Origin: an uncultured Alphaproteobacteria bacterium
GTDB taxonomy: Bacteria > Pseudomonadota > Alphaproteobacteria > RF32 > CAG-239
Direction: 5' to 3'
Length of the DNA stretch: 64,000 bases
Assembly (NCBI GenBank): GCA_947630965.1
Contig: CANRJO010000004.1
Coordinates: 3,143-67,142, forward strand
Every line of letters starts with the position of its first letter. Positions within the stretch are counted from its first letter, which is position 1. Of the stretch, positions 5,507 to 46,422 are shown in pieces. The position numbers and the translations under genes are program-made. The notes under the pieces were generated by a model that saw only the letters and a program-made list of their open reading frames with translations, made no database searches and was not told where the DNA came from.

Positions 5507-5508
5507 TT

Positions 5509-5730: not shown

Positions 5731-5750
5731 TTTAATTTCCTTTCTTAAAA

Positions 5751-6476
5751 TTAATGATGATGTATAGCATCACCCAAATAAATGCAGCTTAATATAGTAT
5801 AGATATAAGCTTGCAAAAGTGCAATAAACATTTCAAAAATAATAATACAGGCGTCAAACAAAAGCGGAACAACGCCCGCCACGCCAAGCGCCACAATAAA
5901 GCCTGCCAAAATTTTGAGCATAATATGCCCAACCGTCATATTTGCCACAAGACGCACTGTCAGGCTAAAAGGTTTAGATAAAAGAGAAATCGCCTCAATC
6001 GGCACCACAAGAGGTGCCAAAGCAACAGGGATCCCTTTGGGTAAAAATGTGTGCAGATAGCCCCATTTTTTAGTATAAATCCCCACGCAAATATTAAAAC
6101 ACAGTGCCAAAACAGACAAACACCCCACAGCGGCAACATGCGAAGTAAAAGTAAAGCTGTAAGGGAAAAGCCCAAGCAAATTACCAAAAGCAATAAACAA
6201 GAACAAAGAAAAGATAAACGAAAAATATTTCAGCCCGTCTTTGCCGATGCTGTCGCGCATCAGATTATGAATAAACTCATAAATTGCTTCCGGCACCGAT
6301 TGCGCCAAATTCGGCACAACCGTCCTTTTCCGAAGACAAAGCGTAAACAATAAAACAATGGAGCAAACAGCAATAACCATCATCAAAGACGAGTTTGTAA
6401 AGGAAACATCATAGCCCTTAATAGAAAGGGGAATAATCGGCTTAATTTCAAATTGTTCCAAAGGGCTTGACATCAA
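5751..6476 (-). CDS. atpB: F0F1 ATP synthase subunit a
   Basis: 241-aa polytopic membrane protein; conserved R in RLVANMTVGHIMLKI (the stator arginine helix). Confidence 0.9.
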   Translation of the reverse strand: MMSSPLEQFEIKPIIPLSIKGYDVSFTNSSLMMVIAVCSIVLLFTLCLRKRTVVPNLAQSVPEAIYEFIHNLMRDSIGKDGLKYFSFIFSLFLFIAFGNLLGLFPYSFTFTSHVAAVGCLSVLALCFNICVGIYTKKWGYLHTFLPKGIPVALAPLVVPIEAISLLSKPFSLTVRLVANMTVGHIMLKILAGFIVALGVAGVVPLLFDACIIIFEMFIALLQAYIYTILSCIYLGDAIHHH

Positions 6477-29534: not shown

Positions 29535-30507
29535 TTTCGTCCTCCATTGTTTCAACAACCAAAACTCTGTTACCATTATAAAAAGTAGCAATCGGCGCAG
29601 GTCTTGCGCGAGCAAAAGCTCTGATAAGCGCGGAGCTCACATCAGCAAAACGACCGCGGAAAATAGCACCGGCGCTCAAAACATAATTACGGTTTGTGTT
29701 CCAAACCAATCGCCAACCAGATTCTTGACTCCATTGTGTCAGCAAAGCTTTCAAATTTTGTCCCTCGTCGGCAAACCAGTCACGTACAGGGTCATCCACA
29801 GGAGCGGAATAGGGCTCATCTTCAACATAAACTTCTTCCCTCTCATATCTGTTCCTGTCATATCTGCCTCTGGTTCTTTCTCTATCATATCTGTCCATAA
29901 CAACGCAATCTTCGCCACCCTCTTCTTCAATGCACTCGTCTTCAAAAACCAAATCCACATCTGTTCCCGCGGCAGGTGCTCTAGAGCCTGATCCCTTTCT
30001 GGCGGAATGCTTGCGAGCAGGGCGCGCGCGTACTTTCTTGGATGTGTCTTTCTTAACCTCACGAGCCGGATGGTATGAATCATCTTCCGCAGCGTTAGCC
30101 ATTAAAGCGGCATCGTCAGAGACTTGCTCTTGATAAACAACAATCTCATCTTCAATTGACGGGGGAATAGATGCCGAAATGTTGTTACCTGCTGCGGCTT
30201 GAGAAATTCTTTGATCTCTCGGTGTGCGCTCACCAAAACGTCTGAAGTCAGCGGGCGTGCGCGTAAAATTCACAAAAGGATCTGTAGCGCAGAGGCTCGG
30301 ATCGCCGCTTTCTTGGCATATTTCGGGAAGCGCTGCCGGCTCATAGGGTTCTTCAACCATATCAGCCGTATAATATTCATCGCTGCAGTTTGGACCGAAG
30401 CACTCATTATTGCCATAGCGCGAATTAATCCATGAACAGCCTGAAAGGCTAATCAGACAAAGCGCTAAAACCAATTTATTGTTCATATTTATTCCCCTGT
30501 TATACAT
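29521..30507 (-). CDS. Lipoprotein with C-terminal TcpQ/PilL-like domain (also the DotD family fold)
   Basis: Signal plus lipobox LISLSGC; C-terminal LTQWSQESGWRLVWNTNRNYVLSAGAIFRGRFADVSSAL resembles the TcpQ domain; acidic/basic low-complexity middle. Confidence 0.6.
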   Translation of the reverse strand: MYNRGINMNNKLVLALCLISLSGCSWINSRYGNNECFGPNCSDEYYTADMVEEPYEPAALPEICQESGDPSLCATDPFVNFTRTPADFRRFGERTPRDQRISQAAAGNNISASIPPSIEDEIVVYQEQVSDDAALMANAAEDDSYHPAREVKKDTSKKVRARPARKHSARKGSGSRAPAAGTDVDLVFEDECIEEEGGEDCVVMDRYDRERTRGRYDRNRYEREEVYVEDEPYSAPVDDPVRDWFADEGQNLKALLTQWSQESGWRLVWNTNRNYVLSAGAIFRGRFADVSSALIRAFARARPAPIATFYNGNRVLVVETMEDENAFD

Positions 30508-30573
30508 AAATTTTTAACTATCATACATTTCTCAAAACTAACAATCAAGCACAACAAAAAACTTATTACCAGT

Positions 30574-32091
30574 TTAATAATATGTTCTTGGAGGTGCCAC
30601 AGAAGAACTTTTTGTACGCTTATTTTGCTGTTCCTGCTTAAAGCGGATATTGCGGATAATAAGCGAGTTAGGTTCTCTTGTGGTTGCAATCACGTTTATT
30701 TTTCTGAAATCCACACCGCGATCGGCAAAAATCTTGGAAAGAAGCTTTAAGCGCTTCTTTTGTAGATTAATTGAGCCGTTCGTATCTACGCGAACTTCCA
30801 AAAAAACATCATCATGATCGCGGGCATTGTCCGCAAAGGCACGTATCCATTGCAAAGATTGCCCTGAAATTTCCGCCCGATTGGGCTGAAATGAAAGTCT
30901 TAACTCAGCCGGCATAATAGCATTTTCTTGCGCGGCAAGAGGAGGTGGCACAACTTGTCCTTTCCGGCGCCGTCCTTGGCTTGGCGGCTGAACAAGCGCA
31001 GTGGCGGAATTTCCGTCAGAATTTTCGCTTGTTTTATCATCGTTTTCTTTTTTGCTAAACCATGAAGTAATGCTTTTGAACAGCCCACTGTCTTTATCTT
31101 CTTCACTCATCTCGTTATCTTCAGGTTCAGGCGCCGTGGGTGTACCGTCAATTTTTTCCTCATGGGGCGAGTAAGAAAGCTGCGGTGTCAAATCAGCATC
31201 ATTCATAATTTCGTCCGGAATGGGAATAAGTAAATTTTGAATCATTTTATATGCTGTTTGGCTTGATTCATCAGGTTTTTGCAAAAGCTTGGGCTTAAAA
31301 GTTTCTTCAATTTGAGCAAGCTCCTCATCGGGCAGCTCTTCAAGATGAACCTCTTCTTCAGGCTCGGGCTCTAAATCTTGCTTCGAATCTTGTTCAGGTT
31401 CAGGCTCGGTTTCATCTTTCGGCTCGGGTGTAACCACAGGCTCGAACTCAGCAAAAGTTTCAACTGCGAGTTGATTTTTGGCATATCTGTTGGCGCTTGC
31501 AACAACCCAAGGTGTTTCTTGGTCGGCATCAGCTTCTTCAAGGGCTTTTGTTTGAGCAGCCAAACTTAGGTCATTATCTTCCACTAAATTGCTGTGATAA
31601 ACAGGTTTTGAAAGAAAATTAAGCGGTGTCAGCGCGGCAAAATCAGCGCTTTGAATGCTCTGATGTGTCACGGGCTCGCCTTGCTCAAGCGGAATAATTT
31701 CTTCATCGTCAGGCTCACCCTCATAAACAATCTTGCTATCTGTCGGGGTAGTGTCTTCCAAAACAATCGCATGTGCTTGCGCTAATTCTGTGGCTGTATT
31801 CGCCGGCGGGGGAGGCAGAAGGCTTTCGGAAGCTTCTTGAAAGGTAATTTCAGGTGTTTGGGCTTCATCTTGCGCCGTTATCGGGGCGGGTTCAGAAACA
31901 GCGTCAAAAGTTTTTTTCTTTGTTTCAATAGGCTCTGAGAACAAAGAAATATCAGGAGTTTCAATATATTTTGGAGCGGGATTTTTGAATATGTTTTGAG
32001 GCGAATGGAGCACAAATTTATCGGCGCACACAATGGCAAGCATCGATAAAATAAAGCTACAAACAAAATTTTGAATGCCGTTTTTTTGCAT
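30574..32091 (-). CDS. Signal-anchored Pro/Glu-rich protein with a putative degenerate OmpA/MotB-like C-terminal domain; first gene of the pilus operon
   Basis: 505 aa; N-terminal hydrophobic segment, long acidic PE-rich linker (EPEPEQDSKQDLEPEPEEE), C-terminal ...VFLEVRVDTNGSINLQKKRLKLLSKIFADRGV. Confidence 0.4.
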   Translation of the reverse strand: MQKNGIQNFVCSFILSMLAIVCADKFVLHSPQNIFKNPAPKYIETPDISLFSEPIETKKKTFDAVSEPAPITAQDEAQTPEITFQEASESLLPPPPANTATELAQAHAIVLEDTTPTDSKIVYEGEPDDEEIIPLEQGEPVTHQSIQSADFAALTPLNFLSKPVYHSNLVEDNDLSLAAQTKALEEADADQETPWVVASANRYAKNQLAVETFAEFEPVVTPEPKDETEPEPEQDSKQDLEPEPEEEVHLEELPDEELAQIEETFKPKLLQKPDESSQTAYKMIQNLLIPIPDEIMNDADLTPQLSYSPHEEKIDGTPTAPEPEDNEMSEEDKDSGLFKSITSWFSKKENDDKTSENSDGNSATALVQPPSQGRRRKGQVVPPPLAAQENAIMPAELRLSFQPNRAEISGQSLQWIRAFADNARDHDDVFLEVRVDTNGSINLQKKRLKLLSKIFADRGVDFRKINVIATTREPNSLIIRNIRFKQEQQNKRTKSSSVAPPRTYY

Positions 32092-32503
32092 TTTGCCCCT
32101 GTTTTGAATCTCCCCAAAACCGCACGCTTAAAGGGGTTTAAGCGCTTATAAAGAAGAAATACTAAAAAGCCTGACTCTCGTCAATGCCTTTTTTGGTTTA
32201 TGTTTGAAGAACCTGTCGAAAATGAGTCTGAGCGAGTCAAAGGCGATTCAAAGGCTTGTGCATAACTTTTTTAAGAAACGTTTTTTTAATCTTTTACTTC
32301 GAATCGAAGGTGATGTTCTAAAGTTCACAAATCATAAAAAGCGGTTATTAACGCATTATTCATAAAAAGAGTGTATCTTTAAAAAAGAACACCTTTTTTC
32401 GGACAAACTCATAAAAGACTAAATGGCGAAAAGGGGATAAAAAAGGAATAAATCTTGAAGAACGCAACTTTGCGACTTTATGATTAAGGCAAAAGGAAAC
32501 GAA

Positions 32504-32794
32504 ATGAGAGATATGATCTTAAAAGCCGTTGCCCAGCCGCCCAAAATTTTTTGGGGGCCCGTGTTGCCTGTTGCGTTAAACGCTGGTTTACAGTTTCCGT
32601 TTATGTTTATGATGATTGGTATCGGCGATGTCAACCCATTGTTTTTTGTGGTCAGCATTATTTTAGTCCATACAGGCATTGTCCTTTATGGCACGCGAGA
32701 ACCGCATCTTTCGGCGATGATTCAGGCGTTTGGTCAAACAAACGTAGTCTCGCATAACCTTTATTCAGAGAGGGGGAATAAATTTGAGCCCTGA
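32504..32794 (+). CDS. virB3: Type IV secretion system protein VirB3
   Basis: ~97 aa, two hydrophobic segments; RBS AAAGGAA before ATG 32504; overlaps virB4. Confidence 0.65.
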   Translation: MRDMILKAVAQPPKIFWGPVLPVALNAGLQFPFMFMMIGIGDVNPLFFVVSIILVHTGIVLYGTREPHLSAMIQAFGQTNVVSHNLYSERGNKFEP

Positions 32795-35219
32795 TTTTGA
32801 TTTTTTCAGCTTATTTGCACAAGGTTTAAGCAATGTTGAAGTCATGGTTGCCGTCATCGGTATCATTTCCGCGGCGGCATTTGGCGTCTTGTTAGCCACG
32901 CGTTTTGGTAACTGGATTTTACCGCAACCGCGTGAATCTCGCGTGTCAGACTTTTTGCCTTTTGCGCGTTTAATGGAAGATGGTGTCACCATTCGTTGCA
33001 GCAATGGCTCATACGCGCGTGTTTTCCGCATCAACGGCATAGACCTTTCTTCCGCAACTGAAGAAAAAACTTATTCGATGATGGAAGCGCGCAAAGCCTG
33101 GATAGATAATATGTCCGAGCTCCAGATTGTTTGCCGCGTGATAACACTGCGTGATCTGACAGCATTGGAAAAAGCAGAAGGCGAGTTTAACAACGAAATT
33201 TTGGAAAAAGTTTCCGAAATTTGGTATGAAAATATGACTCGCATTTATACCAACACACATTATATTGTTATTTCTGTGGCGGATCGGAAAGACGCCATCA
33301 AAGACCTTAACTATGCCTCACAAAGTCTTGTTGCCACATTAACCGAGTATGGCGTTGCTCAAATGTACGAGGCGCCCGACAGTCCCGCAACCGATAGCCC
33401 GCTTTATCTTTTTAGCCGGCTTGTGAGCCCCATTTCTAAGCCTGAGCCCAAAATCCGAAACGCCCAAAATGCCGAACTCAATGAAATGTTAACAGCTGAT
33501 CACATACATTTCACCCGCGAACAAGGCATCATTCGGTTTTTCTCGGGCGATAAAGAAAAGTATGAAATTGCCATGGGCATTCGCACCACAGGTGATTATA
33601 TGGATGAGAATATGATTATGTCGCTTTTATCCATAGATTCAGAGCTTGTCTTGTTGCATAACATTCGCCCCATATTCAAGCCTCAAGCACGAATGATGCT
33701 TATTCAGCAACAGCGTATGGCTGTTTTAACAAGTTTTTCGCCGGAAGTTGTCAATCAATATTCCCAAGCGTTAGGAACCATTGAAGATTCAGACGCTGAT
33801 TATCAAGCTTTAACAGAATATGCCATGACGGTTTTAATCCGCGGTGAAACAAAAGAGGAGCTTGACTTTGGTGAATCTGAAGTTCAGCGTATTTGTCGTT
33901 CATTTGGTGTCACGCCAGTGCGTGAAGGTTGGGTGGCACAAGCCACATTTTTCAGCCAATTCCCAACTTATGACACTTACCCCCGGACATACCGCTATTT
34001 ATCGCGTGTTGTAGCCATGGCGGTGTGCTTTGATAAGCCTGCGGAAGGTTTTGGAAAGTCTGACTGGGGGCCGGGCGCCATTACGGTTTTCCGGACCATG
34101 TCGGGTTCGGCTTATCGGTTCCAATTCCACGTTTCTGCTGAAGAATCAGCTGTGGCGCACTGTTGCATTATTGGTCCAACCGGACAAGGTAAAACAACAT
34201 TGCTCACATTCTTGGCAGGGCAGGCAATGCGCCATTCTGATTTAAAAGTGTTCTTCTTTGACCGTCACCGCGGTGCTGAGATTTTTACCCGTGCCATTGG
34301 CGGTGCATACGTTGGTTTTGACGGCGATAATAAAAATGTTTCCTTAAATCCGTTTGATGCCGATAACACACCGAATAATCGCGCCTTTTTGCGCCGTTGG
34401 ATGAAGGCCATTACCCTGGCAGATGATGCGCTTTCCGAGCGTGAAATTGCTCGCGCGGTCACCACCGCGTTTGATTACTTGCGTCCTGAAGAGCGCGTGA
34501 TGAAAAACCTTTACAAAAGCTGTTTCTCGCCAACAGGAACGATGCGCCGCGAACTTTACAGGTGGATAAACCCTGATCAATATGGCAACATCTTTAACGC
34601 CGATACAGATAGTTTGGACTTAAAAGCCAAGCGCTTTATGGCATTTGACTTCACGCACATTTTTGAAGATGAAACCTTGGCGCCGGCGGTCATCAGCTAC
34701 ATCATGCACCGCATTCAATCTGAAACCGGCGAAACAGGTGTGCCGTCTCTGATTATGATTGATGAAACGGCGCCGATGCTCAAACACCCAATGTTTAGAG
34801 ATTACTTCATTATTGGTTTGCAGGAAGGTCGTAAAAAGCGCCAAGCATATTTGTGCGCGTTTCAACAGCCAAACATTATTGATAAACTTGGCGTTGGTGA
34901 GGTCATTCGTGGTCAATGCCAAACAATCATTTTCTTTAGAAACCCGCAAGCCATGCCTGAGGATTACGCCACATGGAACTTAACACAAGCGGAGTTGGAT
35001 TTTGTATTTGGTAAAACTTACCGCGAATTTCCGTATGCCATTTTGCTTTCGCGTCCGGCAACGGGTGAATCGGTTATTTTAGACGTTAATTTAGGCGCCT
35101 TAGGACCATACCTCAAGCTTTACAACTCAGGCCGGAAGAACGTTTTGCTTGTTGAACAACTCATTAAAGAATACGGCGAAGAAAACTTTGTTACAAAATA
35201 TTTAAATATTGGCGAGTAG
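32784..35219 (+). CDS. virB4: Type IV secretion system ATPase VirB4 (TTG start)
   Basis: 811 aa; Walker A CIIGPTGQGKTT, Walker B LIMIDETAP; RBS AGGGGGAA upstream. Confidence 0.9.
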   Translation: MSPDFDFFSLFAQGLSNVEVMVAVIGIISAAAFGVLLATRFGNWILPQPRESRVSDFLPFARLMEDGVTIRCSNGSYARVFRINGIDLSSATEEKTYSMMEARKAWIDNMSELQIVCRVITLRDLTALEKAEGEFNNEILEKVSEIWYENMTRIYTNTHYIVISVADRKDAIKDLNYASQSLVATLTEYGVAQMYEAPDSPATDSPLYLFSRLVSPISKPEPKIRNAQNAELNEMLTADHIHFTREQGIIRFFSGDKEKYEIAMGIRTTGDYMDENMIMSLLSIDSELVLLHNIRPIFKPQARMMLIQQQRMAVLTSFSPEVVNQYSQALGTIEDSDADYQALTEYAMTVLIRGETKEELDFGESEVQRICRSFGVTPVREGWVAQATFFSQFPTYDTYPRTYRYLSRVVAMAVCFDKPAEGFGKSDWGPGAITVFRTMSGSAYRFQFHVSAEESAVAHCCIIGPTGQGKTTLLTFLAGQAMRHSDLKVFFFDRHRGAEIFTRAIGGAYVGFDGDNKNVSLNPFDADNTPNNRAFLRRWMKAITLADDALSEREIARAVTTAFDYLRPEERVMKNLYKSCFSPTGTMRRELYRWINPDQYGNIFNADTDSLDLKAKRFMAFDFTHIFEDETLAPAVISYIMHRIQSETGETGVPSLIMIDETAPMLKHPMFRDYFIIGLQEGRKKRQAYLCAFQQPNIIDKLGVGEVIRGQCQTIIFFRNPQAMPEDYATWNLTQAELDFVFGKTYREFPYAILLSRPATGESVILDVNLGALGPYLKLYNSGRKNVLLVEQLIKEYGEENFVTKYLNIGE

Positions 35220-38795: not shown

Positions 38796-41700
38796 ATGAA
38801 GAAACACTTTCAATATGCTTTAATGGTGGCACTCTTACTTGGTGTTTTATCAAGTATACCTGCAAGCGCATTTTTCCCGCTTCCTCCAGGACCCACAACT
38901 CCGGATGCAGACCCCGCAACTGATACAACAAACGGTTTGGCGTATTATATGGAGCAATTAACCAAAAAATTTAATAATTTTGCCACCCAAATGGAAGATA
39001 CGTCAAAGAAAATCCAATCATTGGAGGACAAAGCATCATTAGTTTCTTTCCTTTCTGAAAAAACAGAGGCGGCAAAGGAAACTTTAAGTGTCAAGAAAGA
39101 AAAAGGGAAGTCATCTGTTGACAGCGCAAAGAAAATAGAAGAATGCACCATCGCAGATATTAAAAGCGAAGAGTCTGTGGCTGAGGCGTTTAAAAAATTA
39201 TTTACAAAATATCCTGCAGACATTTTAAAAAAGCACCCGCTCGATTCCAAAATTGTGACAACAGCATATCGCAAAAAAGGTGTGGAATTCAGCAATGATA
39301 TCATGATAGAGGCTTATCTTGTTTCGCGTCAGCTCCAAGAGCGCATGGACGCCTTGCGTGAAGATTATAACACACTTACCGAATGTTACGTTGATGGTAA
39401 GAAAAGCAATGGCGATTCTTGTAAAGCCGCATCAGATACTAGTGATGAAGTTGGCATAATAGTGAACTATTACAGACTAAATGCTATTTACGATTCGCTT
39501 TTACGCATTGCGGAAGAACTCACCGCTTTAAATGCACAATATCGAGCAGCGCAAACCTTGCGTGAAGGTATCAGACCAATTATGCCAGAAGAAGAGGAAA
39601 ACGCACAAAATAACAGCGAGGGCGATAACAGCGAGGGCGAAAATCAGGCATTTAACTTTAGAATGGTAGAAAAAATGTCTTTTGCGCAAATGTTGCCTTC
39701 TTCATCAGGAGAAGAGCCTCAACAAAAGCAGCCTGAAGAGCAAAACAACGCGCAAAATGATGAGAAAAAAGCTTCTCCTAATGCTAGCAAGCTTGATAAA
39801 TTAAGAGACGCATTAACCCCTGTCGTCATGAAAGAACCGGAGCTGTCTTCGCTTTTAAAGGGAACAGATAAAGTGTTTGAAGATATGGCACTTTATGATG
39901 AATTGTACGGTAAGCTCAGTAACGCGCAAAAAATTCACAATTTTAAGGTTGTTATGCCGTTTTACCGTGAAGTTTTTGTGAATGTGCGTCAAATAAGAAT
40001 ATTATATGAAGAAGCCTTAAAACGTCTTAACGCATCAAAGCAATGTGCTATCAATCATTTAACGACTTATTACGGCGGTATGGACTTTGAAGCATTCTTA
40101 AGTTGGGTGCGTTCATCTTATCAGGCAACAAAAGCCCAAACCGCAGTGGAGGTTACGGAAGATGAGTTTTCGCCGCGGCAGGTAGATGATTTTGCCGGCA
40201 CAGGCGATTTATCTCAAATAAGCGAGCTAGAAAAAACTTTGCGTGTTGAGCAAGATTCCGAAACAGGAGATAGCGCGCTAAGACACCCGAGCCTGGAAGA
40301 ACCTCATGAAAAAAATGTACGAGGGCAAGAAGTTTTGTCGTGGCTTATTGGCGAGCAGGCAGTTGAAGACATTAGTGCCGATATGAAAGCTTCAGGCGTT
40401 GGGACCGATAAAAAGCCTGAGGCTGTGAATGTTAAATGGGGCGTTCCCGTCAAGCCTTACCCGCTTTGGGAAGATGAAAAATACTTTTATAAAGAGTATG
40501 TTCTTCAAAAATATAACAATATGAAAATATTTATCCGAAATCTGAATATGCGTGGCGCAGTGGCAGAAATTGTGCAAACAATGCTCGATTCTTTAGATGC
40601 AGGGGAAGAAATTGATGATGTGCCCGCTGTTGATGTTAAGAACTACGGCAATAAAGCGTTAAGCCAACTTTCCGGTAGCCTTGGCGCACCTGATAAGGAA
40701 AATGCTGATCTTGAGGAGATTAAAAAGCAAATTGATGAAAGTTATAAAAAGATGGAAGAGACTAAATTACATTATAAGGAGCTTCTTGAATCGCTTGAAA
40801 GAAAAAAGCAAGGACTTTACCAAGAATATGATAATTATAATGTGGAGCTTACTTCTCTTAAAGAAGATTATAACAACTTCATGGATGAAAAGAACAAAGC
40901 AGATGTCAATGCTCAAACGCAAGATATTGTTTTAGACATCAACCAAGAGCGCATGGATAAGAGCAAATATGCAACGGATGTTCTTGCCAATATGGCAACC
41001 GAAGATAAAAAAGTGGCTGAGGAAACATCTGCTCAAAAGCAAAAAGAAGCTGAAGCGCTTTTAGAGAAGATGGAAATATTAAGGGAAAAAATTGATGATG
41101 TTCGTGCAAGAATTGATGATATAAAGAATTTAATAGAGGCCACTAAAGACGAATTTGGTGGAGCAATGTATGGGCTTAGCAAAGAAAATGAGGATCTTTG
41201 GGAGCAGGCTTGGGAACTTGCAGCCACGCCCAAAGACGATGTCACGCTCTCAAGCGCGTTAGATACGCTTTCTGATAAATCGGGCGATTTATATGCCATA
41301 TTCTCCGATATGGTTAGCACGGCAGATAATCTTATGGCGGATGCTGTAGCTGATGCCATAAAGCGTATTGATGAAGCCTTACAGCAATATGATGAGCTTG
41401 GTAAAGATTTTTATAAGCCGGAAGAGGCGGACAAGGTTTTAAAAATTCACACCGATTTAATGCGTGATTTACAAATGCAGCCCCTGAAATCAACTTTAGG
41501 AAGTTTTGAAGATGTGGTGGATTCCTCGCAAATTCTCAGTATGGCGCAAAACGTTTTTCAAAAAACATTAATGACGGCAACTTGCCAAGGGGGGAGTTGT
41601 TATGCGCCTGATACGGAATTTTTCGTAGGCCTTCCGGCAAAGGCAAGAGATTTTACCGCGCCCAAGAAAATTGAATATACATACACACCGCCAATGCGCG

Positions 41701-42809
41701 AGATTGTCCATTTTGACACAATAGATTATGACACAGTTGTTAAAACGGTTTTAGATGAGCTCGCTCGTGATGCGTTGCTTGAATATGACGAGAGCGCGTA
41801 CTTACCGGAAATATGGCATCGAATCTTGGGACCAAAAGGCTTTGTTGAAAATAATTTTAATGCCAAAAAGATGCTAGAGGCTATTGATCCTGAAAATACC
41901 GCTCCGTTGCTTAACGGGGGTGAATATCCTTGCAAAGCGGGCAAATATATCATCGGGTTTAAAGACAATGCCCTCACCTTGTGGCAAGAAAATGACAGTT
42001 CCTTGCAAGAGTGCTCAGGTATTGAGGAAATTGAAGTGCAGTCTTCAGGTAAAGTTAACGTAAATTTTGAAAATGGCGACCAAATAGTTGGAAGAATGTC
42101 TTCAGACTTTAGCGATGAAGATGCCGAATCTATGTGCAATTCTAGTGAACTGGCAACACTTCTTTCTTATACTGGAAAGTACACTTATAATGGGAAGTTG
42201 AAAGAAATTTACAAATTCTTTGCAGAAGCTTATGATGGTAAGAATTTATCTGAAAGCGATAGCGGTAAAGTGAGAGTTTATAAAAATGCCTTACTGGTTC
42301 GCAACCAATTTGGCGATTATCTGAACTTTGTCGAGTTGGTAGAAAATTATAAAAAAGTTTTAGATGAAATGGAAGTAAAGCTTGATGAAACACGTGAAAG
42401 CATAAAAAAATCTCTTAAAGTCATAAATTATGAGCCGCCGGCAGATTTTGATTTGGCTGACAAAGCAACATATGACGAAATTATGGAAAAGCTTGAAACG
42501 GCTAAAAATGGGCTTATTGAGGAAGTTGTGCCGAAAATAAAAACAATGCATCAAGGCAATGAAGGTATGGATGAAAACATCCAAAAACTGAAGGATATGG
42601 TCAGTGCGCTTCAGCTTGATAAAGACGAGGTTGTTTCACTTTCGGATAACATGAAAGGCGATAGCGAGCTAGCTGAAAAAATTAAGTCAAAAATGGCTGA
42701 TATTGAAATTGTAAACCGCTATAATAAAGAAGCAGAAACAGCGGCGGAAAAAGAAATCAGAAATTTCGGTACGCCTTACTGCGCAAGCACATGTGATTTC
42801 GGTTCTTAG
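38796..42809 (+). CDS. Giant secreted protein (1337 aa), T4SS-associated; no internal TM segments, so not a canonical VirB6
   Basis: Signal peptide (SIPASA); long helical/coiled-coil regions; scattered Cys pairs; C-terminal CASTCDFGS. Confidence 0.45.
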   Translation: MKKHFQYALMVALLLGVLSSIPASAFFPLPPGPTTPDADPATDTTNGLAYYMEQLTKKFNNFATQMEDTSKKIQSLEDKASLVSFLSEKTEAAKETLSVKKEKGKSSVDSAKKIEECTIADIKSEESVAEAFKKLFTKYPADILKKHPLDSKIVTTAYRKKGVEFSNDIMIEAYLVSRQLQERMDALREDYNTLTECYVDGKKSNGDSCKAASDTSDEVGIIVNYYRLNAIYDSLLRIAEELTALNAQYRAAQTLREGIRPIMPEEEENAQNNSEGDNSEGENQAFNFRMVEKMSFAQMLPSSSGEEPQQKQPEEQNNAQNDEKKASPNASKLDKLRDALTPVVMKEPELSSLLKGTDKVFEDMALYDELYGKLSNAQKIHNFKVVMPFYREVFVNVRQIRILYEEALKRLNASKQCAINHLTTYYGGMDFEAFLSWVRSSYQATKAQTAVEVTEDEFSPRQVDDFAGTGDLSQISELEKTLRVEQDSETGDSALRHPSLEEPHEKNVRGQEVLSWLIGEQAVEDISADMKASGVGTDKKPEAVNVKWGVPVKPYPLWEDEKYFYKEYVLQKYNNMKIFIRNLNMRGAVAEIVQTMLDSLDAGEEIDDVPAVDVKNYGNKALSQLSGSLGAPDKENADLEEIKKQIDESYKKMEETKLHYKELLESLERKKQGLYQEYDNYNVELTSLKEDYNNFMDEKNKADVNAQTQDIVLDINQERMDKSKYATDVLANMATEDKKVAEETSAQKQKEAEALLEKMEILREKIDDVRARIDDIKNLIEATKDEFGGAMYGLSKENEDLWEQAWELAATPKDDVTLSSALDTLSDKSGDLYAIFSDMVSTADNLMADAVADAIKRIDEALQQYDELGKDFYKPEEADKVLKIHTDLMRDLQMQPLKSTLGSFEDVVDSSQILSMAQNVFQKTLMTATCQGGSCYAPDTEFFVGLPAKARDFTAPKKIEYTYTPPMREIVHFDTIDYDTVVKTVLDELARDALLEYDESAYLPEIWHRILGPKGFVENNFNAKKMLEAIDPENTAPLLNGGEYPCKAGKYIIGFKDNALTLWQENDSSLQECSGIEEIEVQSSGKVNVNFENGDQIVGRMSSDFSDEDAESMCNSSELATLLSYTGKYTYNGKLKEIYKFFAEAYDGKNLSESDSGKVRVYKNALLVRNQFGDYLNFVELVENYKKVLDEMEVKLDETRESIKKSLKVINYEPPADFDLADKATYDEIMEKLETAKNGLIEEVVPKIKTMHQGNEGMDENIQKLKDMVSALQLDKDEVVSLSDNMKGDSELAEKIKSKMADIEIVNRYNKEAETAAEKEIRNFGTPYCASTCDFGS

Positions 42810-42818
42810 GAAAGAAAA

Positions 42819-43574
42819 ATGCCTGAAAAGCTTGAAAATAACGGAATACAAAAACTAGCCATAACAGACGGGGCTGCCGCGCATTTTGATTATATCACCA
42901 CGGAAGAGGCGGAAAGACGTACGGCAAAAGAGGCTTATTATTGTTGGCTTTCAAGACTTGTGATGTTGTTGGCGGTGTTATCTTTTGGCTTTTTTGCAAG
43001 CGCGTCTTTGGTTTTGTTTCGTTTGGCGCCTGAAGTAACGATTGAGCCGTTTTTGATTATGCGGCAAGATAATTCTGAAACAATGGTGCGTTCAGAAGTC
43101 ATTTCGCCCAATATGGCTTCGGCAAACCAACTCATGGAAAATTTTGTGCGCCAATACATCACTTTGCGCAATTCCATAGTCAATGATGAGCGTGAGATGC
43201 AATCTCGTTGGTATTTAGGCGGTATGGTCAGTTATCTTTCCTCAGCCAAAGTGTTTAAAGAATTTGACAAACCGGCGCGTGAGTTATTGCGTACCGCATC
43301 ATCTAACCATCTGGTGCGAGATGTTGAAATCATATCTGTCAGCAAGGCAGGCGGTGAAAAAAGCCCGGTATGGAAAGTTGATTTTAGAACATATGATCTT
43401 TCCTTGGAAAACAGAAATGATCAAACTGGTGCCTTGGTTTTGGTCACGCGTTATTGGACAGCCTCTGTGACGGCGTTTTTCATCCCCGAGCGGATGTTTA
43501 TGACAAAGCGTTTAATGAATCCCTTAGGTTTTACCGTCACGCGTTATTCACAAGCAGAAGTTGAAATTTTGTAG
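42819..43574 (+). CDS. virB8: Type IV secretion system protein VirB8 (paralog a)
   Basis: 251 aa; N-terminal cytoplasmic region + one TM + periplasmic NTF2-like domain with C-terminal NPLGFTVTRY motif. Confidence 0.75.
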   Translation: MPEKLENNGIQKLAITDGAAAHFDYITTEEAERRTAKEAYYCWLSRLVMLLAVLSFGFFASASLVLFRLAPEVTIEPFLIMRQDNSETMVRSEVISPNMASANQLMENFVRQYITLRNSIVNDEREMQSRWYLGGMVSYLSSAKVFKEFDKPARELLRTASSNHLVRDVEIISVSKAGGEKSPVWKVDFRTYDLSLENRNDQTGALVLVTRYWTASVTAFFIPERMFMTKRLMNPLGFTVTRYSQAEVEIL

Positions 43575-43725
43575 TTTTTTCAAGGCTTTTATGCAAAAAA
43601 ATATTTTTCGAATCGCTAACTTGTTGATAAGTTGGGGATTCCTTATGTTCGAGTTAGACATTTCAAAATAAAAAGTTTAATCTACAGTTGTCTAGACATA
43701 TATTTATAAACAAAGGAACATTGCA

Positions 43726-43914
43726 ATGTATAAAAAAATCATATTGTTTCTTGCCGTTTTGTTGTTATCGGCGTGTGGTTTGTTTGGCTCTTATTATGAG
43801 CCGGAGCCTGTAGGTATCGGTAAAGATGTGAACGAGCTCAAGCTTTCGCCGTGCGCCTGTATTGAGGTGGAGCTTCCTAAAACTCTGCCGGATTGGTTTG
43901 TTGCAACAATTTAA
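43726..43914 (+). CDS. Small lipoprotein (62 aa), VirB7-like by size and position
   Basis: Signal plus lipobox LLSACG; lies between the two virB8 paralogs as in the rvh-type virB8-virB7-virB8 arrangement. Confidence 0.5.
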   Translation: MYKKIILFLAVLLLSACGLFGSYYEPEPVGIGKDVNELKLSPCACIEVELPKTLPDWFVATI

Positions 43915-43928
43915 GCTAAGAGAGTTTC

Positions 43929-44669
43929 ATGGCTGAACAGTTAGGTTCAAATCAAGGCGAACAAAAGTTGCTTGCAGGCAGGGGAACGCCACGCCGAGCA
44001 GTATCGCGTGAGCGCAACTCTTCAGAGGAAGTGATTGTCGTCAATGCTAGTGAAAAGCGCTACTTGTGGACAGCGCGTGCTTTTGCGGTCATTGTTGTCA
44101 TCAGCCTTTGTTGCAACTTAGTGTTAATATTGGCAATCATGCAGCTTGTGCCTCTTTATCGTTTAGAGCCCTTTATGCTCACTTTTGAAAACAAAGAGGA
44201 ACAGGTCTATGATATTGTTCCACTGAAAAATATGGAAGATCAAAAAGGTATAACGGAGGTTTTTGTCCGTGAATATATCTTAATGCGGAGCGCTTTCACA
44301 GGTGATGTTGCTGAAATGGAATCGCGTTGGATGCCGGGCGGACCTTTGCAGGAAATGTCCTCTTCTTCTGTTTATCAGTCATTTGTTGATCGGACGGCAA
44401 AGCCGGCGCTAGATCTCATTCGGACAAAAGGTCTTGTGCGTTTGGTGCGTATCATGACTGTCAACGAACTTGGCCGCGGTTTGTGGCAGGTTGAATACGA
44501 AACACGTGATATGTATCCTGATTCGGCTGCGCCGGAAATCAATTATTGGACAGCCTCTTTGCGGGTGACGTATCGTAAGAAAAATGTCAAATTCGGCGAA
44601 CGTCTGAACAATCCCATTGGGTTTACCGTCACACGTTATTCGCTTTCACGCAATAATCAGGCGGAATAA
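43929..44669 (+). CDS. virB8: Type IV secretion system protein VirB8 (paralog b)
   Basis: 246 aa; one TM (FAVIVVISLCCNLVLILAIMQLV); C-terminal NNPIGFTVTRYSL motif. Confidence 0.7.
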   Translation: MAEQLGSNQGEQKLLAGRGTPRRAVSRERNSSEEVIVVNASEKRYLWTARAFAVIVVISLCCNLVLILAIMQLVPLYRLEPFMLTFENKEEQVYDIVPLKNMEDQKGITEVFVREYILMRSAFTGDVAEMESRWMPGGPLQEMSSSSVYQSFVDRTAKPALDLIRTKGLVRLVRIMTVNELGRGLWQVEYETRDMYPDSAAPEINYWTASLRVTYRKKNVKFGERLNNPIGFTVTRYSLSRNNQAE

Positions 44670-44685: not shown

Positions 44686-46422
44686 ATGGAACGTTATTTT
44701 ACAAAATTAAGTTTAGTTATAAGTATGGTTTTAGCATCAGCTTCCGCATATGCGCAGGCAACCATTGACAGCCTCAATCAAAATGCTGATCAAAGCCAAG
44801 GAATGTACCAACCAATGAATATGGGCTATACGGGCATTTCTTCCTTAGGTATGACCCAAAGCGCCTGGCTTGATCCGTTGCAAAATTTGGGCGAGGGGCA
44901 ATCAAAGCCGGCATATTCAAAATATTATTGGTCACCTGATCTGGTTTTGCCAATCAGACTGCGTGAAGGGATGATTACGCTTTTAAATTTTCCGCAATGG
45001 GAATTAGTGGAAGATGTTTATATTGGTGATAGCAAAACTTTTGACGGACGCATTTCCGGCCCCAACACGCTTTTGCTTTACCCGAAATCAGGTGCCATGG
45101 TTGGTGTAGATACAAACATCATTGTTTTCGGACGTTCAGGAAACAAATATGTGTTTTATGCCAGAAGTGAGGGCATTAACACCGAGCGCTTAACAAACTC
45201 CATTATTGATATTGAGGTTATAGACGCTGCTTCCCCACAGGGAAAAGCGGGCACGGGAAACGGATCTAGTAGAGTAAACGCAAGCGCTTACAGAGGTGGT
45301 AATAACCTATCGGTCGATTCTAATTTCACAAAACGCTTTCAAAAGGATGACTGGATTCAAAGCATTCCCTTGGATCCAACCCAATTTAAATTTGATATAG
45401 AGGTTTACGTTCCCAACCCTGATGATGTTGTGATTGCACCAGAGCGTGTATGGCGTGATGATATTTTCACATACATTGATTTAGGCGAAAAAGCGCTGAA
45501 TATGGTTCAACGCCCAATTGTCACGTTGATTGTTGAGCGTGTGGAAACGCCTGTCGGGTTTAGGGCAAAAGGACCGAACAATCGGCTGATTATTGTTGAA
45601 GGCGTTGGCGATATGGTTTTAAGAAACGGCAAACGTATTGTATGCTTAAAGTTACGCCGCTCCGATGACGCGGACATCAACCCCACATATTACAACAATC
45701 CGGATGAATGGGATGTTTCTGAAAAATTACCGCTAAGCATGAACAATGTGGCAGGCTCGGCGGGGGCTCCTGCAGCGGCAGCGTCTTCTGCAAACGCGGC
45801 AGCAGCTTCTTCGACTCCTGCTCCGGCAGCAAGTGGCGCGGATTTAGATGATGACGAAGAAGATAACAGTTGGTTGGCAAAATATTACACACCGCCGGCA
45901 GGTTCGGGCTCAAATGCTGACAAAGACGGCTTTAGCTTGGCAAAAGATTCTTCTGTCGGACAAGAGGCATTGGTTGGGGAATATAATGAAAAAGTCGGTG
46001 CAGACGGCGAACTCTTAATTCCGCAATATCTCCAAGATCCGTCCAAAACGGTAGATTACAGCAAAATGCACAAGTTGCCTCATCTGCAAGCCGATTCGAA
46101 TAAAGATGTCAGCAACCTCTTATCATCATACGGCTATGGCAGTGGTTTTGCTGATGCTGAGTTTGGCAATATTTCAGTGGAACTTGGCACAGACGCTGAT
46201 GTAAACAATCTTGAAGGTTTGTGGAATGATTTAAGCGGTCGTTACACGAAGTTACTTGGTTCTTATCAGCCTTTTTATTCGGTTGATGCGCCGGCAGACG
46301 GTCAAGGGCGCGAGCTTTACCATCTGCGTATAGGACCAGTGCCTTCCATTGAAAAAGGCGATAAAATATGTTCTCAACTAGGGCGTAACGGTGTTTTCTG
46401 TAGTGTAGTCAGAGTGCAATGA
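44686..46422 (+). CDS. virB9: VirB9/CagX/TrbG-family outer-membrane core protein, extended (578 aa) by an Ala/Ser-rich linker and a C-terminal SPOR-like peptidoglycan-binding domain
   Basis: Signal peptide (SASAYAQA); VirB9 N-domain; C-terminal RELYHLRIGPVPSIEKGDKICSQLGRNGVFCSVVRV resembles SPOR. Confidence 0.65.
   Translation: MERYFTKLSLVISMVLASASAYAQATIDSLNQNADQSQGMYQPMNMGYTGISSLGMTQSAWLDPLQNLGEGQSKPAYSKYYWSPDLVLPIRLREGMITLLNFPQWELVEDVYIGDSKTFDGRISGPNTLLLYPKSGAMVGVDTNIIVFGRSGNKYVFYARSEGINTERLTNSIIDIEVIDAASPQGKAGTGNGSSRVNASAYRGGNNLSVDSNFTKRFQKDDWIQSIPLDPTQFKFDIEVYVPNPDDVVIAPERVWRDDIFTYIDLGEKALNMVQRPIVTLIVERVETPVGFRAKGPNNRLIIVEGVGDMVLRNGKRIVCLKLRRSDDADINPTYYNNPDEWDVSEKLPLSMNNVAGSAGAPAAAASSANAAAASSTPAPAASGADLDDDEEDNSWLAKYYTPPAGSGSNADKDGFSLAKDSSVGQEALVGEYNEKVGADGELLIPQYLQDPSKTVDYSKMHKLPHLQADSNKDVSNLLSSYGYGSGFADAEFGNISVELGTDADVNNLEGLWNDLSGRYTKLLGSYQPFYSVDAPADGQGRELYHLRIGPVPSIEKGDKICSQLGRNGVFCSVVRVQ

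What the first reader, a model, noticed from the sequence alone, without database searches (positions are those of the whole stretch)
44686..46422. VirB9 homolog fused to a C-terminal SPOR-like peptidoglycan-binding domain
This VirB9 is about twice normal size. Its N-terminal VirB9/CagX domain is followed by an Ala/Ser/Asp-rich linker (AAASSANAAAASSTPAPAASGADLDDDEED) and a C-terminus, YHLRIGPVPSIEKGDKICSQLGRNGVFCSVVRV, matching the SPOR fold. SPOR domains target denuded glycan at septa. A SPOR-anchored VirB9 would tether the outer-membrane core complex to peptidoglycan, and possibly to division sites. This is not a described feature of VirB9.
Basis: partly seen in the sequence, partly recalled or inferred. 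Interest (0 to 1): 0.55.

Follow-up and report, generated by a model that had tools for sequence, protein, structure and literature searches.

The report
VirB9 with a variant SPOR tail
This secretion-machine outer-ring protein (VirB9) does carry a flexible tether ending in a cell-wall-binding-type SPOR domain, conserved across hundreds of gut Alphaproteobacteria, but the domain has replaced the glutamine that normal SPOR domains use to grip bare cell-wall glycan, so what it binds is open.

Summary
Window 44686-46422(+) encodes a 578-aa protein with these parts:
- a Sec signal peptide;
- a divergent but complete VirB9/CagX core (aa 78-321, Pfam E=4e-11);
- a ~160-aa variable, disordered Ala/Ser/Gly/Asp linker;
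- a conserved 93-aa C-terminal domain.

That domain belongs to the SPOR family:
- The window protein alone is borderline in Pfam (20.2 bits, cut-off 21), but 76 of 89 relatives hit SPOR.
- A profile of the domain reaches genuine multi-SPOR proteins among 1.8 billion sequences.
- The AF2 model (pLDDT 84) matches RlpA and CwlC SPOR structures (TM 0.73-0.78, rmsd 2.3-2.6 Å).

The fusion is widespread. It sits in a conserved chromosomal VirB7-B8-B9-B10-B11 module in at least 374 species of uncultured gut and rumen Alphaproteobacteria, and on plasmids of cultured Erythrobacter and Sphingosinicella.

The key glycan-contacting Gln (FtsN Q251, RlpA Q270) is Glu in 137 of 139 VirB9-SPORs and Asp in the Sphingomonadales. 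Q251E is a published binding-defective mutation. The aromatic residue and one Arg are also lost.

The most likely role is a peptidoglycan tether for the outer-membrane core complex with non-canonical specificity. Septal targeting is unproven. I rate it a new variant of a known kind, of moderate interest.

The parts
44686..46422 (+). Complete VirB9-SPOR gene (578 aa plus TGA). Its stop overlaps the ATG of the next gene (ATGA).
44686..44754 (+). Sec-type signal peptide, aa 1-23 (MERYFTKLSLVISMVLASASAYA|Q). The cleavage site is inferred from the AxA rule.
   Evidence: Sequence. AF2 predicts a helix at aa 2-19. The cleavage site is an inference.
44755..44916 (+). Family-specific N-terminal segment, aa 24-77. 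It is 80-96% identical across relatives but predicted disordered. Its role is unknown; it may be a partner-binding segment.
44917..45648 (+). VirB9/CagX core, aa 78-321. It comprises an N-domain (~78-180), a variable Gly/Ser/Asn insert (181-220) and a C-domain (~221-325).
   Evidence: Pfam PF03524 E=4e-11, profile positions 4-195 of 198. Conservation profile. All 89 relatives hit CagX.
45661..46140 (+). Disordered low-complexity tether, aa 326-485, rich in Ala/Ser/Asp/Gly. Its length ranges from 96 to 164 aa across the family.
   Evidence: Up to 74% gaps and high entropy in the alignment. pLDDT below 50. Composition and length range.
46141..46419 (+). C-terminal SPOR-family domain, aa 486-578. 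The structured beta-alpha-beta-beta-alpha-beta core spans aa 496-577.
   Evidence: Pfam SPOR 20.2 bits, E=7e-4. 76 of 89 relatives hit SPOR. AF2 pLDDT 84. Foldseek top hits are RlpA and CwlC SPOR. Reciprocal profile hits to true SPOR proteins.
46180..46182 (+). Codon GAA = Glu499, at the position of the glycan-contacting Gln of canonical SPOR domains (FtsN Q251, PaRlpA Q270).
   Evidence: Alignments. Literature: PMC6895207 and bioRxiv 10.1101/2024.05.13.594014.
46321..46329 (+). His546-Leu547-Arg548 on strand beta3. H546 is equivalent to FtsN R285 and PaRlpA R309. R548 is equivalent to PaRlpA R311 and is invariant.
46369..46401 (+). Cys562 (helix alpha2) and Cys572 (strand beta4). This near-invariant pair is shared with the closest true SPOR proteins. 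A periplasmic disulfide is inferred.
   Evidence: 208 of 209 in the family and 204-206 of 209 in other SPOR domains. The disulfide itself is an inference.
43726..43914 (+). 62-aa lipoprotein (lipobox LLSA|C) between the two VirB8 genes. It is a VirB7-like candidate partner of the VirB9 C-domain.
   Evidence: Conserved in 82 of 82 loci.
42819..44669 (+). Two VirB8 paralogs (42819-43574 and 43929-44669) flanking the lipoprotein gene.
   Evidence: Pfam VirB8 E=3e-17 and 1e-19.
50119..54432 (+). 1437-aa VirB10: about 1100 aa of beta-flower repeats followed by a TrbI/VirB10 domain. It is the partner of VirB9 in the outer-membrane core complex.
54442..55413 (+). VirB11 ATPase.
   Evidence: NCBIfam TIGR02788 E=3e-42.
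32784..35219 (+). VirB4 ATPase, marking the start of the T4SS cluster. A VirB3-like 104-aa membrane ORF lies at 32480-32794.

Best explanation
The gene encodes the VirB9 subunit of a chromosomal, Rickettsiales-vir-like type IV secretion system of an uncultured gut alphaproteobacterium.

Shown:
- The protein has a signal peptide and a complete VirB9 N-domain plus C-domain core.
- It lies in a conserved order: VirB8, small lipoprotein, VirB8, VirB9, (beta-flower protein), VirB10, VirB11.
- It carries a 96-164-aa disordered tether ending in a SPOR-family domain.

Inferred:
- After export, the core assembles with the VirB7-like lipoprotein and VirB10 into the multi-copy outer-membrane core complex.
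- Each VirB9 copy lets its SPOR domain, probably disulfide-stabilised, hang down on the tether to the peptidoglycan layer.
- The ring of 14 or so SPOR domains latches onto glycan strands through the conserved beta-sheet face. Together, through multivalent binding, they anchor or position the machine in the sacculus.
- The canonical glycan-contacting Gln is Glu (Asp in the Sphingomonadales homologs), the stacking aromatic is Asp, and one Arg of the basic patch is His. The ligand or affinity therefore probably differs from the classical denuded glycan bound by FtsN, DamX and RlpA. I would expect either weaker binding that works only through many copies, or recognition of a chemically different (for example less anionic) form of the glycan.

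Whether this directs the machine to septa or poles is not known.
For: - VirB9 identity: Pfam CagX above the gathering score over the whole profile; canonical gene order, conserved in 82 loci.
- SPOR identity: 76 of 89 relatives hit PF05036, best E=1e-6. The domain profile retrieves proteins whose only Pfam domain is SPOR (E 1e-22 to 1e-34) at library-wide E 1e-11 to 1e-5. Two independent AF2 models each give RlpA and CwlC SPOR structures as their top three PDB hits, at rmsd 2.1-2.6 Å, while every other ferredoxin-like hit is at roughly 5 Å or worse.
- Architecture mirrors known SPOR proteins: envelope anchor, long low-complexity linker, C-terminal SPOR.
- Strands are more conserved (entropy 0.46-0.62) than helices (1.2-1.5).
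- The tail persists whether or not the giant beta-flower proteins are present (L086 and the Sphingomonadales plasmids). Its partner is therefore something universal, such as peptidoglycan or the core machine.
- It is the only SPOR-bearing ORF in each of 85 loci.
- Precedent: Legionella DotK, a PG-binding protein associated with the core complex, is needed for polar Dot/Icm placement (PMC10266036).
- One lineage (P0209) carries Gln at the key site, so the pocket is one mutation away from canonical.
Against: [quoted passage not shown]
- In RlpA, the Gln amide donates H-bonds to the MurNAc lactyl carboxylate and the GlcNAc N-acetyl group. A carboxylate cannot do that and should repel the lactyl carboxylate.
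- The F274-equivalent aromatic is Asp, the R309 equivalent is His, and the beta2-beta3 loop is acidic (DAPADG).
- No binding experiment exists.
- The domain profile has no sequence-level PDB hit, and the window protein alone is 0.8 bits under Pfam's SPOR cut-off.
- Higher conservation of strands than helices is also expected from core packing alone.
Confidence: 0.55

Rival explanations
1. Canonical SPOR function. The domain binds amidase-generated denuded glycan, concentrates VirB9 at the division septum, and so installs the T4SS at new poles. This would be analogous to AMIN-domain targeting of the PilQ secretin (from my own knowledge, not tested here).
For: - All characterised SPOR domains bind denuded glycan (abstracts).
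- The fold matches the RlpA SPOR-glycan complex best.
- G501, R548, G550 and P551 of the SPOR signature are retained.
- No VirB1-type lytic transglycosylase was detected in the cluster, so assembly at a site of ongoing PG remodelling would be convenient.
- Fourteen or so copies could compensate for weak individual affinity (inference).
- The Legionella T4SS is assembled at mid-cell and ends up polar.
Against: - The near-invariant Q-to-E/D change equals a known binding-defective mutation.
- The aromatic and one Arg of the basic patch are lost.
- Among non-VirB9 SPOR domains, Glu never co-occurs with the aromatic (0 of 16 against 94 of 129; Fisher p=9e-9, though the sequences are not independent). 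That suggests a coherent alternative binding mode and not simple tolerance of the change.
Confidence: 0.17
2. The domain keeps the SPOR fold but has been re-used as a protein-protein module within the secretion machine. It might dock onto VirB10, VirB8 or the inner-membrane complex, or onto neighbouring VirB9 copies to form an extra periplasmic ring. In that case it would not bind peptidoglycan at all.
For: - The key glycan-binding residues are replaced.
- The beta-sheet face is very strongly conserved, including acidic residues that could pair with a basic partner.
- Expanded T4SSs commonly add extra ring-forming domains (PMC12857230).
- The gene is translationally coupled to the next gene.
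Against: - A 96-164-aa linker that is highly variable in length and sequence fits a reach-and-grab tether better than a fixed structural ring.
- The tail is retained in systems with very different accessory proteins.
- The closest non-VirB9 relatives of this 'E-type' domain are stand-alone two-SPOR proteins encoded outside T4SS clusters, so the variant is not specific to T4SS.
Confidence: 0.2
3. The tail is surface-exposed and the SPOR-like domain acts as an adhesin for glycans on a target cell or the host.
For: Only indirect. Giant repeat proteins encoded next to it (beta-flower/YD-like) look like surface or contact proteins. The altered binding site could suit another glycan.
Against: - In solved core complexes, the VirB9 domains lie on the periplasmic side of the outer membrane (review PMC12857230).
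- There is no outer-membrane-spanning segment after the C-domain.
- SPOR domains are periplasmic or wall-associated wherever they have been studied.
- A conserved Cys pair fits periplasmic folding.
Confidence: 0.04

Closest known systems
SPOR domains of FtsN, DamX, DedD, RlpA (Pfam PF05036) and B. subtilis CwlC
   Same: - Same beta-alpha-beta-beta-alpha-beta RNP-like fold, with best structural matches 6i09/6i05 (RlpA) and 1x60 (CwlC).
- Same sequence signature elements: xLGx on strand beta1 and (R/H)xRxGP on beta3.
- Same placement at the extreme C-terminus behind a long low-complexity linker.
- A stabilising Cys at the FtsN C312 position.
   Different: - The glycan-contacting Gln is Glu (Asp in Sphingomonadales). 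The aromatic is Asp. The R285/R309 equivalent is His.
- The beta2-beta3 loop is longer and acidic.
- The disulfide partner is in helix alpha2 and not in beta1.
- The domain is attached to a secretion-system subunit, not a divisome or lytic protein.
Canonical VirB9/TrbG/TraO (A. tumefaciens VirB, pKM101, R388) and H. pylori CagX
   Same: Pfam CagX match across the whole profile; signal peptide; gene order B8-B9-B10-B11; a small lipoprotein encoded nearby.
   Different: - Very divergent: NCBIfam VirB9 equivalog scores 28 bits against a cut-off of 218, and there is no sequence-level hit to any solved VirB9.
- It adds a conserved 54-aa N-terminal segment and a ~250-aa C-terminal tether plus SPOR.
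- Tail-less relatives are 318-345 aa.
Legionella Dot/Icm DotK (OmpA-like lipoprotein of the T4BSS outer-membrane core complex)
   Same: A peptidoglycan-binding-type module physically associated with a T4SS outer-membrane complex. DotK binds PG, and its loss mislocalises the machine. Its binding is tuned by a PG modification, GlcNAc deacetylation (PMC10266036).
   Different: DotK is a separate subunit with an OmpA-like fold that recognises the peptide stem (mDAP). Here a SPOR-type, glycan-recognising fold is fused directly to VirB9 in a type IVA-like system. No experiments exist for this system.
PG-binding accessories of other trans-envelope machines: PilQ AMIN domains, TsaP/FimV LysM, GspA/ExeA, T6SS TagL (from my own knowledge; only the general statement appears)
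   Same: The general principle: an outer-membrane or trans-envelope machine carries its own cell-wall anchor, which can also dictate where the machine is placed.
   Different: The domain families and secretion systems are different. None of them is a SPOR domain on a T4SS core subunit.
Uncharacterised two-SPOR proteins of ~420-480 aa (P0220, P0236, P0274, P0283, P0315) and multi-SPOR or ankyrin-SPOR proteins (P0217, P0221, P0218)
   Same: These are the closest sequence relatives of the VirB9 tail. They share the Cys pair, and the two-SPOR proteins share the 'E-type' beta1 motif (x-E-[LIV]-G, no aromatic) in their first domain.
   Different: They are stand-alone proteins not encoded in T4SS clusters. 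Most of their domains keep the canonical Gln.

Membership tests
VirB9/TrbG/CagX (PF03524) | Sequence match to the family profile above the curated threshold, covering both the N- and C-domains | tested here: met
   43.5 bits against a cut-off of 34.2; profile positions 4-195 of 198 at aa 78-321. All 89 relatives match.
VirB9/TrbG/CagX (PF03524) | Equivalog of P-type VirB9 (NCBIfam TIGR02781) | tested here: not met
   28.3 bits against a cut-off of 217.7. The protein is a divergent member of the superfamily and not an ortholog of the Agrobacterium-type protein.
VirB9/TrbG/CagX (PF03524) | Encoded between virB8 and virB10 in a T4SS cluster, with a VirB7-like lipoprotein | tested here: met
   Order VirB8, 62-aa lipoprotein, VirB8, VirB9, (beta-flower), VirB10, VirB11, conserved in 82 loci.
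VirB9/TrbG/CagX (PF03524) | Periplasmic export signal | tested here: met
   Hydrophobic N-terminus with AYA|Q. The cleavage site is an inference; no dedicated predictor was available.
VirB9/TrbG/CagX (PF03524) | Beta-sandwich folds of the N- and C-domains; assembly into the core complex with VirB7 and VirB10 | tested here: inconclusive
   The full-length AF2 model is poor over the core (pLDDT 25-74), so no VirB9 structure was retrieved. Assembly cannot be tested with these tools.
SPOR domain (PF05036) | Sequence match to the family profile | tested here: inconclusive
   The window protein scores 20.2 bits against a cut-off of 21, E=7e-4. At family level the feature is met: 76 of 89 relatives hit at E<=0.01 (best 1e-6), and several distant cluster representatives score above the cut-off (21.7-27.7 bits). 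Reciprocal profile hits reach true SPOR proteins.
SPOR domain (PF05036) | RNP-like beta-alpha-beta-beta-alpha-beta fold of ~75 residues | tested here: met
   AF2 pLDDT 84, with strands and helices in the expected order. Top PDB matches are 6i09, 1x60 and 6i05 at TM 0.73-0.78 and rmsd 2.3-2.6 Å, with DedD at rank 12.
SPOR domain (PF05036) | Conserved Gln on strand beta1 that contacts the glycan (FtsN Q251, RlpA Q270) | tested here: not met
   Glu in 137 of 139 VirB9-core proteins, Asp in the Erythrobacter and Sphingosinicella homologs, and Gln in one lineage only.
SPOR domain (PF05036) | Basic patch and aromatic or hydrophobic contacts on the beta-sheet (RlpA R302/R309/R311, F274, L307) | tested here: inconclusive
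   R548 (=R311) and L544 (=L307) are retained. H546 replaces R309 (Arg in distant members). D503 replaces F274. The R302 region is an acidic loop.
SPOR domain (PF05036) | Binding to denuded peptidoglycan glycan strands and septal localisation | not testable with these tools
   Needs sacculus pull-down or ITC and a GFP-fusion localisation assay.
OmpA-like, LysM or AMIN peptidoglycan-binding modules of secretion machines | Match to those domain families | tested here: not met
   There are no such Pfam hits on VirB9 or on any other protein of the cluster.

The most novel reading that the evidence does not exclude
The VirB9 tail and its stand-alone relatives define an 'E/D-type' SPOR subclass whose acidic pocket recognises a different cell-wall feature from classical denuded glycan. 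Candidates are glycan carrying free amines (N-deacetylated GlcN/MurN), or carboxylate binding bridged by a metal ion. T4SS placement or anchoring would then be coupled to a specific peptidoglycan-editing state, in the way DotK and PgdA are coupled in Legionella. This would extend the ligand range of SPOR domains and reveal a built-in positioning device in a T4SS family that is nearly universal in a major uncultured gut alphaproteobacterial order.
Probability: 0.2. Interest if true: 0.7.

Novelty: new variant of a known kind. Interest (0 to 1): 0.5.

Why it matters
Trans-envelope machines must cross and hold on to the cell wall. For type IVA secretion systems, no dedicated wall anchor on the core complex has been described.

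Here a core subunit carries one, conserved over at least 374 species of uncultured gut and rumen Alphaproteobacteria. It also occurs on plasmids of two culturable Sphingomonadales, which makes the idea testable by experiment.

For SPOR biology, this is a large natural family in which the 'essential' Gln is replaced by the very residue used as a loss-of-binding mutation, while the rest of the binding sheet is under strong constraint. If the domain still binds wall material, it will show how far SPOR specificity can shift.

The practical gain is modest: better annotation of a widespread, unstudied gut T4SS and a ready-made hypothesis about how it is positioned.

Tried and rejected
- Sequence search of the whole protein, the C-terminal profile (A2) and the full-family profile (A1) against PDB sequences gave no useful hit. 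Fold comparison was needed instead.
- The full-length AF2 model was too poor over the VirB9 core to confirm its fold.
- The word-indexed homolog search with the SPOR profile returned only fragments of the same family. The exhaustive HMMER search was needed to reach true SPOR proteins.
- Cluster look-ups gave no taxonomy for divergent members or for the two-SPOR proteins. The genomic contexts of the two-SPOR proteins gave no clue to the ligand.
- The idea that the C-terminal region is the canonical VirB7-binding domain was rejected. That domain lies at aa 221-325, inside the Pfam CagX match.
- The idea that the ORF is an assembly fusion of two genes was rejected. It is continuous in hundreds of independent genomes.
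- The idea that the split VirB9 + SPOR arrangement in L096-L098 is a designed two-gene variant was rejected. The junction differs by indels or Ns between ~4x-coverage assemblies, and the SPOR ORF would lack a signal peptide.
- The idea that the SPOR tail is a partner of the neighbouring beta-flower giants was rejected. The tail persists where those proteins are absent.
- The Microvirga VirB9 tail resembles SPOR by eye but is not significant (E=0.03), so it is not counted.
- Looked for a VirB1/SLT, amidase or PG deacetylase gene in the cluster that could define the ligand. None was detected by Pfam or NCBIfam.
Full report

Yes. Window 44686-46422 (+) is a clean ATG-to-TGA ORF of 578 aa. The opposite strand is closed by stops.

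Pfam places a complete CagX/VirB9 match (profile positions 4-195 of 198, 43.5 bits against a cut-off of 34.2) at aa 78-321. It also gives a borderline SPOR match (20.2 bits against 21, E=7e-4) at aa 506-576.

A conservation profile over 120 relatives shows the domain layout directly:
- conserved blocks at aa 21-180 and 221-325, which form the VirB9 core;
- a short variable insert at 181-220;
- a gap-rich, highly variable stretch at 326-485;
- a conserved final block at 490-578.

Tail-less plasmid relatives are 318-345 aa, so 'about twice normal size' is fair.

**2. Where does it come from, and what surrounds it?**

The identical protein is on two ENA metagenome contigs. Over 1,000 database proteins are related. 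A scan of one genome per species found 374 species carrying it. The 80 loci listed are all uncultured gut, rumen or faecal Alphaproteobacteria MAGs, some labelled 'Azospirillum sp.' or Ca. Scatocola.

The window is chromosomal. It carries shikimate kinase, RNase PH, AddAB-type nuclease/helicase genes, XerC-like and DciA genes, then a type IVb pilus cluster on the minus strand (21.6-32 kb), then the T4SS.

The T4SS gene order is:
- VirB3-like ORF;
- VirB4;
- three unknown genes;
- a 1337-aa unknown;
- VirB8;
- a 62-aa lipoprotein (lipobox LLSA|C, VirB7-like);
- VirB8;
- VirB9-SPOR;
- a 1262-aa beta-flower repeat protein;
- a 1437-aa beta-flower + VirB10 protein;
- VirB11;
- a 1475-aa unknown.

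The block from VirB8 through the beta-flower protein is conserved in all 82 related loci, and VirB10 in 80 of them. The VirB9 stop overlaps the next start codon. No VirD4, relaxase, VirB1-type transglycosylase or amidase was detected in the cluster.

**3. Is the C-terminal domain a SPOR domain?**

Four independent lines say yes.
- **Pfam across the family.** 76 of 89 relatives hit Pfam SPOR at E<=0.01, best 1e-6. Several more divergent cluster representatives score above the cut-off.
- **Reciprocal profile search.** A profile built only from the VirB9 tails (A2) was searched exhaustively against 1.8 billion representatives. It first finds VirB9-type proteins with the domain at their C-terminus. 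After a gap it then finds proteins whose only Pfam domain is SPOR, in two or three copies (Pfam E 1e-22 to 1e-34), at library-wide E of 1e-11 to 1e-5.
- **Fold match.** AF2 folds the 93-aa tail with pLDDT 84 (core above 90) into beta-alpha-beta-beta-alpha-beta. Foldseek against PDB gives RlpA SPOR bound to denuded glycan (6i09, TM 0.78, rmsd 2.3 Å), CwlC (1x60) and apo RlpA (6i05) as the top three, with DedD at rank 12. All other hits are generic ferredoxin-like folds at roughly 5 Å rmsd or worse.
- **Independent model.** The separately computed full-length model gives the same top three.

A sequence-only search of the tail profile against PDB finds nothing, so the relationship is remote but real.

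The overall architecture also matches all classical SPOR proteins: envelope anchor, long low-complexity linker, C-terminal SPOR. The linker here is predicted disordered. Across the family it is 96-164 aa long and rich in Gly/Ser/Ala/Asp.

**4. Does the binding site look canonical?**

It does not. I aligned the tails with E. coli FtsN and RlpA, taken from the K-12 genome, and with the true SPOR repeats. The RlpA-glycan crystal-structure paper defines the contacts (PMC6895207):
- Q270 ('highly conserved') donates H-bonds to the MurNAc lactyl carboxylate and the GlcNAc N-acetyl group;
- F274 stacks on MurNAc;
- R302, R309 and R311 form the basic pocket for the carboxylate;
- the FtsN equivalents are Q251, S254, W283, R285 and I313.

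In the window protein the equivalents are E499, T502, D503 (for F274), L544, H546 (for R285/R309) and R548 (for R311). The beta2-beta3 loop is a longer, acidic, invariant 'DAPADGQG'.

Counting over every domain retrieved:
- Proteins with a VirB9 core have Glu at this position in 137 of 139.
- Non-VirB9 SPOR domains have Gln in 130 of 166 and Glu in 22, even though that sample is biased towards domains resembling ours.

[quoted passage not shown] The VirB9 family therefore carries, as its wild type, the substitution used experimentally to disable denuded-glycan binding.

The change is not isolated:
- Among non-VirB9 SPOR domains, Glu never co-occurs with an aromatic at the F274 position (0 of 16 against 94 of 129; Fisher p=9e-9, with the caveat that the sequences are related).
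- An 'E-type' motif also occurs in the first domain of stand-alone two-SPOR proteins of ~420-480 aa.
- The two Cys (C562 in helix alpha2, C572 in strand beta4) are conserved in over 97% of both the VirB9 tails and these relatives. This points to a disulfide and to a common origin. The disulfide itself is inferred.

**5. How far does the fusion extend?**

Cluster representatives below 50% identity still show CagX plus a C-terminal SPOR. Their genes sit in chromosomal B7-B8-B9-B10-B11 modules among housekeeping genes. One has a beta-flower VirB10 (L087) and one has a normal 663-aa VirB10 next to mitofilin/HemY genes (L086).

A tblastn of the VirB9 core against 72,556 plasmids finds the nearest annotated relatives on plasmids of cultured Alphaproteobacteria:
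- Erythrobacter aureus YH-07: 40% identity, VirB9 of 432 aa;
- Sphingosinicella sp. BN140058: 40% identity, 430 aa;
- Microvirga sp. VF16: 33% identity, 550 aa.

All three lie in VirB8-B9-B10-B11 clusters, and the Erythrobacter and Microvirga clusters, viewed in full, run from VirB2 to VirD4. Pfam sees no SPOR in the two scanned, Erythrobacter and Microvirga. A broader SPOR profile built here matches the full tails of the Sphingosinicella protein (aa 339-429, E=1e-11) and the Erythrobacter protein (aa 342-430, E=3e-11). Both have Asp at the Gln position and keep the Cys pair. Microvirga is only marginal (E=0.03).

Relatives at 31% core identity or less have no tail: Paracaedimonas, Magnetospirillum, Thalassospira, Roseibium and Azospirillum. 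So the fusion marks one alphaproteobacterial VirB9 subfamily. Within it, the canonical Gln is essentially never present. One lineage, P0209, has 'VQLGS'.

In each of 85 loci, the VirB9 gene is the only ORF with a SPOR-type domain.

**6. What does it most likely do?**

*Shown:* an exported VirB9 with a disordered tether and a SPOR-fold domain, co-inherited with the core-complex genes, whatever accessory proteins are present.

*Inferred:* the VirB9 core builds the periplasmic and outer layers of the core complex with the lipoprotein and VirB10 (architecture as reviewed in PMC12857230). The tether lets each of the ~14 copies reach the peptidoglycan layer. The SPOR domain binds the wall through its beta-sheet face.

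Points in favour of the wall as partner:
- homology to SPOR;
- the tether design;
- independence from accessory subunits;
- the existence of stand-alone relatives of the same subclass;
- precedents such as Legionella DotK, an OmpA-like lipoprotein associated with the core complex, which binds PG in an acetylation-dependent way and is required for polar placement of Dot/Icm (PMC10266036).

Points against canonical denuded-glycan and septal targeting:
- the Q-to-E/D change;
- the F-to-D change;
- the R-to-H change;
- the acidic beta2-beta3 loop.

I therefore commit to 'peptidoglycan tether with non-canonical specificity or affinity' at about 0.55. The rivals are canonical septal targeting at about 0.17, a re-purposed protein-protein module at about 0.20, and surface adhesin at about 0.04.

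**7. Comparison with what is known, and novelty**

The protein is a divergent member of the VirB9/CagX superfamily. It is not an equivalog of P-type VirB9 (28 bits against a cut-off of 218).

Its tail belongs to the SPOR family by fold and profile but fails one defining feature, the conserved Gln. I therefore file it as a SPOR-family variant. I do not claim that it works like FtsN's SPOR.

Wall anchors on secretion machines are a known theme. A SPOR-type domain fused to a T4SS core subunit was not found in any paper searched, and a comprehensive 2025 T4SS review does not mention SPOR at all. However, automated Pfam annotation already marks SPOR plus CagX on some relatives.

**Verdict:** a real feature, and a new variant of a known kind. 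Interest is about 0.5, raised by the natural 'Q251E' state and by the existence of culturable carriers, and limited by the absence of any functional data.

Noticed in passing
window 46419-50207 and 50119-54432: Two giant proteins (1262 and 1437 aa) are packed with beta-flower (PF21785/PF21784), DUF3659 and YD-like repeats. The second ends in a TrbI/VirB10 domain (aa 1116-1312; best NCBIfam hit is ComB10). It is therefore a VirB10 with a ~1100-aa repeat extension, reminiscent in concept of H. pylori CagY. The pair is conserved in 80-82 of 82 related loci. In L087 the two are one 1507-aa protein.
   Followed up: partly
window 21663-32091 (- strand): A complete type IVb pilus cluster lies immediately upstream of, and divergent from, the T4SS. 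It includes a PilS/bundlin-like pilin, T2SSF platform, T2SSE ATPase, PilO-like protein, secretin and TcpQ.
   Followed up: no
window 32480-59962: The T4SS cluster shows no detectable VirD4 coupling protein, relaxase, VirB1/lytic transglycosylase or VirB5. The 1337-aa (38796-42809) and 1475-aa (55535-59962) proteins match no family. Two VirB8 paralogs are present. The organisation resembles Rickettsiales vir-homolog or effector/competence-type systems more than a conjugative plasmid. In L087 a ComEC gene lies nearby.
   Followed up: partly
window 44755-44916 (VirB9 aa 24-77): The segment upstream of the Pfam VirB9 match is 80-96% identical across the family, yet AF2 predicts it as disordered (pLDDT 29-46). 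It is probably a family-specific partner-binding element.
   Followed up: no
L096-L098, about 4719-6351 in each locus: In one lineage (22 contigs), VirB9 is called as two ORFs split inside the linker: 405-438 aa followed by a 116-aa SPOR ORF. The junction differs by small indels and a run of Ns between assemblies of ~4x coverage. This is probably an assembly or strain-level indel in low-complexity DNA and not a genuine two-gene form.
   Followed up: partly
P0209 (493 aa): This is the one VirB9-SPOR cluster representative with the canonical Gln ('IAVQLGS') at the E499 position. It would serve as a natural comparator for binding studies.
   Followed up: no
P0218, P0223, P0248: These proteins combine N-terminal ankyrin repeats with two or three C-terminal SPOR domains, an unusual architecture. 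They are among the closest non-VirB9 relatives of the tail.
   Followed up: no
window 60241-61389 (- strand): A Fic/DOC-family protein with a C-terminal HTH domain is encoded just downstream of the T4SS. Fic proteins are frequent T4SS effectors or toxin modules.
   Followed up: no
L088 8845-10143 and L090 2339-3631: RefSeq annotates the Erythrobacter aureus and Sphingosinicella plasmid VirB9 proteins simply as 'TrbG/VirB9 family'. Pfam misses the SPOR-type tail in the Erythrobacter protein (the Sphingosinicella protein was not scanned). A broader profile detects the tail in both at E~1e-11.
   Followed up: yes
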